Assembly (NCBI RefSeq): GCF_056746865.1
Contig: NZ_CM163382.1
Strand: one strand, 5' to 3'
Length of the DNA stretch: 64,000 bases
Within the stretch, counting starts at the first letter, position 1; each line of letters begins with the position of its first letter. The notes under the pieces were generated by a model. It was not told the DNA's origin. It made no database searches and saw nothing but the letters and a program-made list of their open reading frames with translations. Of this stretch, positions 25,347-26,640 are shown piece by piece. Position numbers and translations under genes: made by a program.

Positions 25347-26122
25347 TTTGCCGTTTTATCGATACCCACTGCCATTTTGATTTCCCGCCTTTTAGTGGCG
25401 ATGAAGAGGCCAGCCTGCAACGCGCGGCACAAGCGGGCGTAGGCAAGATCATTGTTCCGGCGACAGAGGCGGCAAATTTTGCCCGTGTGTTGGCATTAGC
25501 GGAAAATTATCAACCGCTGTATGCCTCGTTAGGGTTGCATCCGGGGATGTTAGAAAAACATAGCGATGTGTCTCTTGATCAGCTACAGCAGGCGCTGGAA
25601 AGGCGTCCGGCGAAGGTGGTGGCAGTGGGGGAGATCGGTCTGGATCTCTTCGGCGACGATCCGCAATTTGAGAGGCAGCAGTGGTTACTCGACGAACAAC
25701 TGAAACTGGCGAAACGCTACGATCTGCCGGTGATCCTGCATTCACGGCGCACGCACGACAAACTGGCGATGCATCTTAAACGCCACGATTTATCGCGCAC
25801 TGGCGTGGTTCACGGTTTTTCCGGCAGCCTGCAACAGGCTGAACGGTTTGTACAGCTGGGCTACAAAATTGGCGTAGGCGGCACTATCACCTATCCACGC
25901 GCCAGTAAAACCCGCGATGTCATCGCAAAATTACCGCTGGCATCGTTGTTGCTGGAAACCGACGCGCCGGATATGCCGCTCAACGGTTTTCAGGGGCAGC
26001 CTAACCGCCCGGAACAGGCCGCCGGGGTGTTTGCTGTGCTTTGCGAGTTACGCCCGGAACCTGCGGATGAGATTGCCGAAGTGTTGCTTAATAACACATA
26101 TGCGTTGTTTAACGTGCCGTAG
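25343..26122 (+). CDS. yjjV: TatD-family metal-dependent hydrolase/DNase YjjV
   Basis: 259-aa ORF with HCHFDF metal-binding motif; starts at TTG overlapping yjjU stop. Confidence 0.85.
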   Translation: MICRFIDTHCHFDFPPFSGDEEASLQRAAQAGVGKIIVPATEAANFARVLALAENYQPLYASLGLHPGMLEKHSDVSLDQLQQALERRPAKVVAVGEIGLDLFGDDPQFERQQWLLDEQLKLAKRYDLPVILHSRRTHDKLAMHLKRHDLSRTGVVHGFSGSLQQAERFVQLGYKIGVGGTITYPRASKTRDVIAKLPLASLLLETDAPDMPLNGFQGQPNRPEQAAGVFAVLCELRPEPADEIAEVLLNNTYALFNVP

Positions 26123-26640
26123 GCCGGATAAGGCGTTTACGCCGCATCCGGCAGTTGGCGCACAATGCCTGATGCGACGCTTGACGCGTCTTATCATGCC
26201 TACAAGTCTGTGCCGAACCGTAGGCCGGATAAGGCGTTCACGCCGCATCCGGCAGTTGGCGCACAATGCCAGATGCGACGCTTGACGCGTCTTATCATGC
26301 CTACATGTCTGTGCCGAACCGTAGGCCGGATAAGGCGTTCACGCCGCATCCGGCAGTTGGCGCACAATGCCTGATGCGACGCTGACGCGTCTTATCATGC
26401 CTACAGGTCTGTGCCGAACCGTAGGCCGGATAAGGCGTTCACGCCGCATCCGGCAGTTGGCGCACAATGCCTGATGCGACGCTGACGCGTCTTATCATGC
26501 CTACAGGTCTGTGCCGAACCGTAGGCCGGATAAGGCGTTCACGCCGCATCCGGCAGTTGGCGCACAATGCCTGATGCGACGCTTGACGCGTCTTATCAGA
26601 CCTACAAGTCTGTGCCGAACCATAGGCCGTATCCGGCATG
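26119..26640. repeat. tandem array of five ~100-bp REP/BIME units
   Basis: Five near-identical units GTAGGCCGGATAAGGCGTTCACGCCGCATCCGGCAGTTGGCGCACAATGCCTGATGCGACGC(T)TGACGCGTCTTATCATGCCTACA(N)GTCTGTGCCGAACC starting near 26119, 26220, 26321, 26420, 26520. Confidence 0.88.

What the first reader, a model, noticed from the sequence alone, without database searches (positions are those of the whole stretch)
26119..26640. Five-unit tandem array of ~100-bp composite REP (BIME) units between yjjV and yjjW
The yjjV/yjjW convergent gap is filled by five near-identical ~100-bp units, each with a REP palindrome, a spacer and an inverted REP, differing only by a T/- indel and single-base changes. It superficially resembles a repeat-spacer array but has no unique spacers. 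Such arrays are REP-derived and may act as transcription insulators, DNA-gyrase or IHF binding platforms, and recombination hot-spots; copy number is likely strain-variable.
Basis: seen in the sequence. Interest (0 to 1): 0.3.

Follow-up and report, generated by a model that had tools for sequence, protein, structure and literature searches.

The report
Known REP (BIME-2) array, five-unit allele
The gap between the E. coli genes yjjV and yjjW is filled by five tandem copies of a well-known pair of palindromic "REP" repeats (catalogued in K-12 as REP352); the array is real and its copy number varies between strains, but it is an ordinary, already described kind of element.

Summary
Window 26117-26640 holds five head-to-tail units of 101/101/100/100/101 bp (TRF score 956, 97 % matches), closed by a decayed REP. 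The array fills the whole gap between the stop codons of the convergent genes yjjV and yjjW.

Each unit has four parts:
- a GTAG-tagged y REP
- a 12-nt short linker
- an inverted z2 REP
- a 16-nt linker

This is the published definition of a BIME-2. Each unit also scores above threshold for Rfam naRNA4 (RF02564). In K-12 the same locus has four units and is catalogued as EcoCyc REP352a-h.

Copy number varied from 0 to 5 units in about 119 sampled complete E. coli genomes, and 5 was the commonest state. An unclassified Escherichia has 11 units. Copy number is stable within clones (K-12 has 4, O157:H7 has 2).

The array contains no intrinsic terminator and no promoter.

The most likely role is a local, dispensable 3'-UTR element made of hairpins. 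These would attenuate read-through and block exonucleases in both directions. The first hairpin abuts the yjjV stop codon, and the class is a known gyrase target.

Novelty: already known. Interest: low.

The parts
25343..26122 (+). yjjV CDS (TatD-like metal-dependent hydrolase). Its stop codon TAG (26120-26122) is the last three bases of the GTAG tag of the first y REP.
   Evidence: NCBIfam NF008522, 569 bits. Last codons are TTT AAC GTG CCG TAG. RefSeq names the identical sequence yjjV.
26117..26217 (+). Unit 1 (101 bp): y REP 26119-26153, S linker 26154-26165 (GTTGGCGCACAA), inverted z2 REP 26166-26203, outer linker 26204-26219. Its y loop reads TTTA instead of TTCA.
   Evidence: Rfam naRNA4 scores 78.8 bits at 26122-26200 on the + strand.
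26218..26318 (+). Unit 2 (101 bp): y REP 26220-26254, S linker 26255-26266, inverted z2 REP 26267-26304 (TGCCAGATG variant, which loses the TGCC|TGAT RAYT cleavage motif), outer linker 26305-26320 (ATGTCTG variant).
   Evidence: Rfam naRNA4 scores 70.4 bits.
26319..26418 (+). Unit 3 (100 bp): y REP 26321-26355, S linker 26356-26367, inverted z2 REP 26368-26404 (one T missing in the loop), outer linker 26405-26420 (AGGTCTG variant).
   Evidence: Rfam naRNA4 scores 79.1 bits, with both hairpins aligned to the consensus.
26419..26518 (+). Unit 4 (100 bp), identical in sequence to unit 3, so probably the most recent duplication: y REP 26421-26455, S linker 26456-26467, z2 26468-26504, outer linker 26505-26520.
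   Evidence: Rfam naRNA4 scores 79.1 bits.
26519..26619 (+). Unit 5 (101 bp): y REP 26521-26555, S linker 26556-26567, inverted z2 REP 26568-26605 (CAGACC variant at the foot of the stem), outer linker 26606-26621.
   Evidence: Rfam naRNA4 scores 77.4 bits.
26622..26638 (+). Terminal decayed y REP (ATAGGCCGTATCCGGCA). It is a y REP that has lost its central 18 nt between GCC direct repeats, and its tag has mutated from GTAG to ATAG. It forms only a weak 4-bp hairpin.
   Evidence: Comparison with alleles that keep a full terminal y REP (L010, ETEC1738) or the variants GCCGCATCC / GCCACATCC. The fold is -5.9 / -7.5 kcal/mol, not different from shuffles.
26641..27504 (-). yjjW CDS (glycyl-radical enzyme activase), convergent with yjjV. 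Its stop codon TGA (26643-26641) lies 2 nt from the REP remnant and about 35 nt from the first stable hairpin on its strand.
   Evidence: NCBIfam TIGR04041, 398 bits. Coordinates.

Best explanation
This is the E. coli BIME-2 cluster catalogued in K-12 as REP352, present here as a five-unit allele. It contains ten intact REP palindromes, alternating y and inverted z2, plus one decayed y REP.

It is non-coding repeated DNA of the REP/REPIN kind. It grows and shrinks in register by whole 100/101-bp units. The mechanism is most likely unequal homologous exchange or replication slippage between units. The REP-associated transposase RayT is a possible extra catalyst in strains that carry it.

Its most likely effect on the cell is local and modest.
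- The convergent yjjUV and yjjIW transcripts have no intrinsic terminator between them. Each therefore runs into a series of ten stable hairpins (about -15 to -17.5 kcal/mol each). These would act as leaky, partly Rho-dependent terminators and as blocks to 3'-to-5' exonucleases, which limits antisense read-through and shapes mRNA stability on both sides.
- The first hairpin starts directly after the yjjV stop codon. That is within the published range of under 16 nt in which a REP reduces translation of the upstream gene.
- At the DNA level, the y REPs are the preferred cleavage sites of DNA gyrase in this class of element.

Shown here: the identity, the anatomy, the copy-number variation, the absence of a terminator, promoter or IHF site, and the hairpin energies. 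Inferred from work on the class and on the sister array REP325: the terminator/stabiliser role, the translational effect and gyrase binding.
For: Identity and anatomy:
- The tandem array is confirmed.
- REP and inverted-REP orientation alternates strictly, with ten cores.
- The y and z2 palindromes are nearly identical to those of K-12 REP325 and of the rayT REPtron.
- Every unit exceeds the Rfam naRNA4 gathering score on the yjjV-sense strand: 70-79 bits against 59.5.
- The published BIME-2 definition is met.
- K-12 carries four units at the same site, and that site is named REP352a-h, overlapping yjjV by 2 nt.

Dynamics:
- Arrays of 0-5 units were seen in two rank-spread samples of complete genomes. 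Two-unit and 11-unit alleles occur in two unclassified Escherichia isolates.
- Unit variants are shuffled between strains, and u3 equals u4 in the window.

Function:
- There is no U-tract terminator and no sigma-70-like promoter in the gap.
- The y hairpin folds at -16.3 / -17.5 kcal/mol and the z2 hairpin at -14.8 / -15.3 kcal/mol on the two strands.
- REP325 was shown to be a partly Rho-dependent terminator and an mRNA stabiliser. REPs between convergent genes are associated with bidirectional termination.
- Gyrase cleavage sites are enriched in BIME-2, mainly in y REPs.
Against: - No expression, termination, half-life or gyrase data for this locus could be examined. The gyrase paper's held supplements do not mention it.
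- The array is dispensable. About 6 % of sampled genomes carry no full unit, and one allele (E300010) has no intact REP at all. Any function is therefore modulatory at most.
- Genome-wide, terminal REPs did not lengthen mRNA half-lives.
- FDAARGOS_497, whose locus is identical to the window, lacks rayT at the syntenic site. A RayT contribution to the recent duplication is therefore unlikely in this lineage.
Confidence: 0.9

Rival explanations
1. The array is purely selfish or neutral repeated DNA. It persists and changes length through recombination or slippage (or RayT) and has no selected effect on yjjV, yjjW or the chromosome.
For: - Alleles range from no intact REP to 11 units with the flanking genes intact.
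- Unit variants are shuffled, as expected for unconstrained unequal exchange.
- The terminal and, in many strains, the first y REP have decayed through internal deletion.
- An IS1397-family element can sit inside the locus.
Against: - The gap has no other terminator.
- The five-unit state is the commonest in both samples rather than the array collapsing.
- REP325, which has the same architecture, measurably alters expression of its neighbours.
- This view partly overlaps with the best explanation, since a selfish origin and a local side-effect are compatible.
Confidence: 0.3
2. The units are genes for trans-acting nucleoid-associated RNAs (naRNA4-like). Together with the protein HU, these RNAs would bridge cruciform DNA and condense the chromosome.
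For: - Each unit passes the Rfam naRNA4 threshold, in the same orientation relative to the upstream gene as in REP325.
- The original 2015 report proposed this role for REP325 RNAs.
- REP352 was one of eight REP regions with exonuclease-protected coverage under stress.
Against: - A 2026 re-examination found that REP325 deletion or over-expression does not change nucleoid volume, and found no HU-dependent REP-REP contacts.
- The Rfam model also hits other y-z2 pairs in the window, so it recognises the repeat class rather than a specific gene.
- The array has no promoter of its own.
- Copy number varies from 0 to 11.
Confidence: 0.04
3. The array is an IHF-binding platform of the BIME-1 (RIP/RIB) type.
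For: Only the general statement that some REP clusters bind IHF.
Against: - In BIME-1 the IHF site lies in the long L linker between a z1 and a y REP, and the element occurs as a single copy.
- Here the partner REP is z2 and the inner linker is 12 nt.
- The IHF core WATCAANNNNTTR is absent from the array. The three matches in the whole window lie elsewhere and are at chance level.
Confidence: 0.01
4. The array is a CRISPR-like repeat-spacer array.
For: Regular spacing of palindromic repeats.
Against: - The 'spacers' (12-nt and 16-nt linkers) are the same in every unit.
- The repeats alternate in orientation.
- The repeats are the genome-wide REP family, with about 20 cores in this window alone.
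Confidence: 0.005

Closest known systems
EcoCyc REP352a-h, the yjjV-yjjW REP element of E. coli K-12 MG1655
   Same: It sits at the same chromosomal site between the same two stop codons. It has the same y and z2 REPs, the same 12-nt and 16-nt linker families and the same decayed terminal y REP. The first REP overlaps the yjjV stop codon in both.
   Different: K-12 has four units (8 REPs) and the window has five (10 REPs). The unit variants differ: K-12 mixes GTTGGCGCACAA and GTCGGCGCATAA linkers and several z2 loop variants, whereas the window's units are more uniform, with two identical neighbours.
REP325 / naRNA1-6 (Rfam RF02564), the yjdM-yjdN BIME-2 array of K-12
   Same: It has the same architecture and period (100 bp against 100/101 bp). 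The y and z2 palindromes are nearly identical, and the orientation relative to the upstream gene is the same. Units here score 70-79 bits against the family model.
   Different: Both linkers are unrelated in sequence: ACGGTGCCGAC and AAATTCCCGCACCCTCC against GTTGGCGCACAA and AAGTCTGTGCCGAACC. REP325 lies between two co-directional genes of one operon, whereas this array lies between convergent genes.
BIME-2 copies flanking rayT (the K-12 REPtron)
   Same: They are y REP plus inverted z2 REP pairs. Their inner and outer linkers (GTTGTGCACCAA; AAACTTGTGCCTGAACG) resemble the ones here.
   Different: They flank the transposase gene itself. The yjjV-yjjW array has no associated gene, and the strain with an identical locus lacks the REPtron altogether.
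BIME-1 / RIP / RIB elements (IHF-binding REP pairs)
   Same: They are built from a y REP and an inverted partner REP in an intergenic region.
   Different: The BIME-1 partner is z1, the linker is the long L motif with an IHF site, and the element is single-copy. None of these applies here.
REPINs (REP doublets forming hairpins) with RAYT transposases
   Same: The ~80-nt y-z2 pair can fold as one long hairpin (-44 to -45 kcal/mol). It keeps the GTAG tag and the stem mismatch needed for RayT binding.
   Different: REPINs are described as dispersed doublets, whereas these doublets are tandemly amplified in place. REP352 was the only one of eight REP regions in the mobilome study that RAREFAN did not call RAYT-associated.

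Membership tests
BIME-2 (Gilson/Bachellier classification, as restated by Ton-Hoang et al. 2012) | Built from y and z2 REPs | tested here: met
   The palindromes match the y and z2 REPs of REP325 and of the rayT REPtron almost base for base. Both hairpins align to the y-z2 Rfam model.
BIME-2 (Gilson/Bachellier classification, as restated by Ton-Hoang et al. 2012) | REP and inverted REP alternate, separated by a short (S) linker and joined by short flanking motifs | tested here: met
   Ten cores alternate strictly in orientation. The inner linker is 12 nt and the outer linker is 16 nt.
BIME-2 (Gilson/Bachellier classification, as restated by Ton-Hoang et al. 2012) | Occurs as multiple tandem copies whose number at a locus differs between strains | tested here: met
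   There are 5.1 copies here. Other E. coli genomes have 0-5, and two unclassified Escherichia isolates have 2 and 11.
BIME-2 (Gilson/Bachellier classification, as restated by Ton-Hoang et al. 2012) | Extragenic location | tested here: met
   The array lies between the yjjV and yjjW stop codons and overlaps only the yjjV stop codon.
BIME-1 / IHF-binding RIP element | z1 partner REP and a long L linker carrying an IHF site; single copy | tested here: not met
   The partner is z2 and the linker is 12 nt. No WATCAANNNNTTR occurs in the array. The element is tandemly repeated.
Rfam RF02564 naRNA4 | Covariance-model score at or above the curated gathering score (59.5 bits) | tested here: met
   The five units score 70.4-79.1 bits on the + strand. 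The - strand scores 51-58 bits, below threshold.
Rfam RF02564 naRNA4 | Expressed as a discrete HU-bound RNA | not testable with these tools
   No expression data for this locus were available. The array has no promoter-like site of its own.
RAYT/TnpA_REP substrate (REPIN-RAYT system) | 5' GTAG tag and an unpaired AA/GC mismatch in the y stem; C|T cleavage motifs in the inverted REP | tested here: met
   GTAG is present in all five y REPs, and the fold shows the 2-nt internal mismatch. TGCC|TGAT is present in four of five z2 copies and CC|TAC in all five.
RAYT/TnpA_REP substrate (REPIN-RAYT system) | A rayT gene in the same genome | tested here: inconclusive
   rayT is not in the window. It is detectable in 3574 of 5426 E. 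coli genomes. In FDAARGOS_497, whose locus is identical to the window, the syntenic REPtron is absent. The rest of that genome was not searched.
Intrinsic (Rho-independent) terminator | G+C-rich hairpin followed by a U tract | tested here: not met
   No terminator-like site falls in 26123-26640 on either strand.
Strong DNA-gyrase site (BIME-2 class) | Quinolone-induced gyrase cleavage within the y REPs | not testable with these tools
   This is shown for the class. The locus is not mentioned in the supplements held for that paper.
CRISPR array | Direct repeats separated by unique spacers | tested here: not met
   The linkers are identical between units and the repeats alternate in orientation.

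The most novel reading that the evidence does not exclude
The number of units could act as a slowly mutating, heritable dial. Under this reading, each added y-z2 pair would strengthen bidirectional termination and exonuclease blocking. It could also alter stress-induced DNA structure or protein occupancy, which is one way to read the exonuclease-protected signal reported for REP352. Lineages with 0, 2, 4, 5 or 11 units would then express the yjjUV hydrolase operon and the yjjIW glycyl-radical-enzyme operon at different set levels.
Probability: 0.08. Interest if true: 0.35.

Novelty: already known. Interest (0 to 1): 0.1.

Why it matters
It matters little beyond correct annotation. Recognising the array as REP352 / BIME-2 has three practical uses:
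- It stops the array being mistaken for a CRISPR-like array, a small-RNA gene cluster or coding sequence.
- It flags a site where short-read assemblies may collapse.
- It explains why the yjjV stop codon and C-terminal tail differ between strains.

The locus could also serve as a convenient natural allelic series (0, 1, 2, 3, 4, 5 and 11 units). That series would allow a test of how the number of REP hairpins affects termination and mRNA stability between convergent genes, a question that current work on REP325 leaves open.

Tried and rejected
- **CRISPR-like array:** rejected, because the linkers are identical in every unit.
- **IHF platform:** rejected, because there is no IHF core in the array and the linker is of the wrong type.
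- **Coding potential of the mechanical ORFs across the array:** rejected. Units are 100/101 bp, not a multiple of three, and whole units come and go between strains.
- **Whole-array RNA folding:** uninformative. The minimum-energy fold is dominated by long-range pairing between units, and the - strand centroid collapses. I used single-element folds instead.
- **REP number from the NC_000913 feature table:** not available, because the table held by the tool lists no REP features. The name REP352 came from a paper instead.
- **Liang, Rudd and Deutscher 2015 (PMC4427526):** not held. Its rule is cited second-hand.
- **Locus-specific data in supplements:** nothing useful. Qian 2015 and Ton-Hoang 2012 have no supplements held as text. 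Sutormin 2019 does not mention the locus. Harris 2026 gave a single line for yjjW in what looks like a differential-expression table.
- **E. coli genomes with more than 5 units:** I could not list them. A junction query showed up to 10 junction copies in at least one genome, but the output cannot be sorted by that number.

Full report

Yes. Tandem Repeats Finder reports a single array at 26117-26629 with period 101, 5.1 copies, 97 % matches and score 956. An independent seed-and-extend search gives five in-register copies spaced 101, 101, 100 and 100 bp apart.

Splitting at the conserved CCGTAGG anchor gives units of 101, 101, 100, 100 and 101 bp, followed by a 21-nt tail. The units differ by one missing T in the loop of the second palindrome (units 3 and 4) and by single-base changes at five unit positions (two of them adjacent, in the u5 z2 stem). 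Units 3 and 4 are identical.

The flanking ORFs are yjjV (25343-26122, +) and yjjW (26641-27504, -). Both are supported by NCBIfam equivalog models and by the RefSeq annotation of identical sequence. The array occupies the entire space between the two stop codons.

**2. Anatomy**

Each unit reads, on the + strand:
- GTAG-GCCGGATAAGGCGTTCACGCCGCATCCGGC-A, a 35-nt palindrome with a 2-nt internal mismatch
- a 12-nt linker, GTTGGCGCACAA
- TGCCTGATGCGACGCT(T)GACGCGTCTTATCATGC-CTAC, a second palindrome in the opposite orientation
- a 16-nt linker, AAGTCTGTGCCGAACC

The ten palindrome cores alternate strictly in orientation.

The first palindrome is the y REP and the second is the z2 REP. They are almost base-for-base the same as the y and z2 copies in two K-12 references: REP325 between yjdM and yjdN, and the BIME copies flanking rayT.

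The tail (ATAGGCCGTATCCGGCA, 26622-26638) is an eleventh y REP that has lost its central 18 nt between GCC direct repeats. Other strains keep it intact, or carry the unmutated deletion product GTAGGCCGCATCCGGCA.

The yjjV stop codon TAG is the last three bases of the first GTAG tag, so the first hairpin stem begins on the very next base. On the other side, the yjjW stop codon lies 2 nt from the decayed REP and about 35 nt from the first stable hairpin.

**3. What class is it?**

The published definition of BIME-2 is: z2 and y REPs, a REP and an inverted REP separated by a short S linker, short flanking motifs, multiple tandem copies, and a copy number that varies between strains at a given locus (Ton-Hoang et al. 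2012). Every one of these features was tested here and met.

BIME-1 is the IHF-binding type. It has a z1 partner, a long L linker with the IHF site, and is single-copy. None of those features applies. The IHF core consensus is also absent from the array: the three matches in the whole 64-kb window lie elsewhere and are at chance level.

Rfam places each unit in family RF02564 (naRNA4) at 70-79 bits on the + strand, against a gathering score of 59.5. Both hairpins align and only the linker diverges. The same model also hits other y-z2 pairs in the window, at 18.3 kb and 30.1 kb. It therefore recognises the repeat class rather than a particular gene.

The K-12 counterpart of this exact locus is catalogued in EcoCyc as REP352a-h, noted as overlapping yjjV by 2 nt (Nielsen and Hansen 2024 preprint). 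The element is therefore already known. The window simply carries a five-unit allele, where K-12 has four.

**4. Variation between genomes**

Two searches of 5,426 complete E. coli genomes were listed at even steps down the ranking. Locus lengths stepped by about 101 bp.

| Units | Sample 1 (59 loci) | Sample 2 (59 loci) |
|---|---|---|
| 5 | 16 | 19 |
| 4 | 10 | 10 |
| 3 | 5 | 5 |
| 2 | 11 | 12 |
| 1 | 14 | 9 |
| 0 | 3 | 4 |

Sample 2 also contained one locus split by an insertion. No sampled E. coli genome had more than five units. However, a query on the unit junction found up to ten junction copies in at least one genome.

Copy number is stable within clones. All sampled K-12 and B laboratory strains have four units, and all sampled O157:H7 strains have two. 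This is not a fast phase-variation locus.

The junction with this locus's linker occurs a median of four times per genome, in 4,126 genomes. That matches the array itself, so the exact linker is essentially private to this site.

Among one representative genome for each of about 100,000 species, the junction pattern was found in only two unclassified Escherichia isolates. One has two units. The other has eleven units plus the remnant, spanning 1,130 nt between the same gene ends.

Sequenced alleles show several further features:
- A minimal state consists of a single intact y REP exactly between the two stop codons (ETEC1738).
- Another allele has only a REP remnant (E300010).
- There are two left-boundary haplotypes. 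In one, an intact first y REP supplies the yjjV stop codon and the protein tail reads ...NVP*. In the other, the first y REP is internally deleted and yjjV is one codon longer, ending ...V(R/S)G*.
- Linker and loop variants are reshuffled between units and strains, as expected from unequal exchange or gene conversion.

**5. How the array changes length**

The y REPs keep the GTAG tag and the AA/GC stem mismatch that the REP-associated transposase needs for binding. Most inverted z2 copies keep its C|T cleavage motifs. The array is therefore a competent substrate in principle.

However, rayT is detectable in only 3,574 of 5,426 genomes. In FDAARGOS_497, whose locus is 100 % identical to the window, the whole rayT REPtron is missing from its usual place between yafL and lfhA. 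The most recent duplication (unit 3 = unit 4) is therefore more simply explained by homologous unequal exchange or slippage between 100-bp repeats. This is an inference, not a demonstration.

**6. What it most likely does**

There is no hairpin-plus-U-tract terminator and no sigma-70-like promoter in the gap on either strand. Transcripts of the yjjUV and yjjIW operons must therefore end in or beyond the array.

Folded individually, the y and z2 hairpins have these energies:

| Hairpin | + strand (kcal/mol) | - strand (kcal/mol) |
|---|---|---|
| y | -16.3 | -17.5 |
| z2 | -14.8 | -15.3 |

All four are more stable than nearly all shuffled controls (at most 1 of 200 shuffles folds as well).

For REP325, the sister array with the same architecture, a 2026 study found that it acts as a partly Rho-dependent terminator and protects the upstream mRNA. 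It produces a ladder of truncated transcripts. That study also found that REPs between convergent genes are associated with bidirectional terminators and with higher expression of both genes.

A REP within 15 nt of a stop codon has been reported to lower translation of the upstream gene (Liang et al. 2015, quoted). Here the distance for yjjV is zero.

Gyrase cleavage sites are enriched in BIME-2 elements, mainly in y REPs and independently of transcription.

From these class-level results I infer that the array is a local, bidirectional 3'-UTR element and a probable gyrase site. None of this was measured at this locus. The natural existence of alleles with no intact REP shows that any role is dispensable.

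**7. Rival explanations**

- **Purely selfish or neutral DNA.** This remains a serious alternative and is partly compatible with the account above.
- **Trans-acting nucleoid-RNA role.** This was proposed for REP325 in 2015. The 2026 re-examination contradicts it, and the lack of a promoter and the variable copy number here also argue against it.
- **IHF platform and CRISPR-like array.** Both fail direct tests.

**8. Verdict**

The element is an already catalogued BIME-2 (REP352) present as a common five-unit allele. Novelty: already known. Interest: low.

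Noticed in passing
window 26108-26122; loci L003-L016: The yjjV stop codon is supplied by the GTAG tag of the first REP. Across strains there are two different gene ends...FNVP* with an intact first REP, and ...F(N/S)V(R/S)G* with a decayed first REP and one extra codon. The REP boundary therefore defines the protein's C-terminus.
   Followed up: partly
window 25720-26112 and 26644-27090: The 400 bp on either side of the array are unusually polymorphic within E. coli. Pairwise identity is 89.7-98.2 % for the yjjV end and 93-98 % for the yjjW end. 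By comparison, yjjI 1.4 kb away and thrA are each about 98 % identical to most genomes. Between the window and K-12, 14 of 18 yjjV differences lie within 100 nt of the array, and many change amino acids in the last ~30 residues.
   Followed up: partly
L012 2526-3994 (strain L1PEag1, yjjV-yjjW gap): An IS1397-family insertion sequence sits in the loop of the single y REP at this locus (...AAGGCGTTT | IS | GTTTACGCC...). IS1397 is known to target REP palindromes specifically.
   Followed up: partly
L018 3258-4351 (Escherichia sp. MOD1-EC7003): The same locus in an unclassified Escherichia carries 11 units plus the remnant, about 22 REPs over 1.1 kb. That is more than the 12 palindromes quoted as the maximum for any K-12 REP element.
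   Followed up: partly
L020 43944-44040 (FDAARGOS_497, yafL-lfhA gap): The strain whose yjjV-yjjW locus is identical to the window lacks the whole rayT REPtron at its usual site. rayT is detectable in only 66 % of complete E. coli genomes.
   Followed up: partly
window 18290-18520 (+) and 30080-30215 (-): There are two further y-z2 REP pairs with different linkers. The first is a two-and-a-half-unit array beside three tandem tRNA genes (17833-18152). Both pass the Rfam naRNA4 threshold.
   Followed up: no
window 62039-62143: An Rfam ES036 (CssrF) sRNA hit at 62067-62109 lies between an inverted z2-like and a y-like REP core. This annotated small RNA may therefore be a BIME linker region.
   Followed up: no
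K-12 REP352 (literature): REP352 was one of only eight of 355 K-12 REP regions with exonuclease-protected 'mobilome' coverage under SDS and copper stress, with no circular DNA detected. It was the only one of the eight that RAREFAN did not call RAYT-associated. The cause is unexplained.
   Followed up: no
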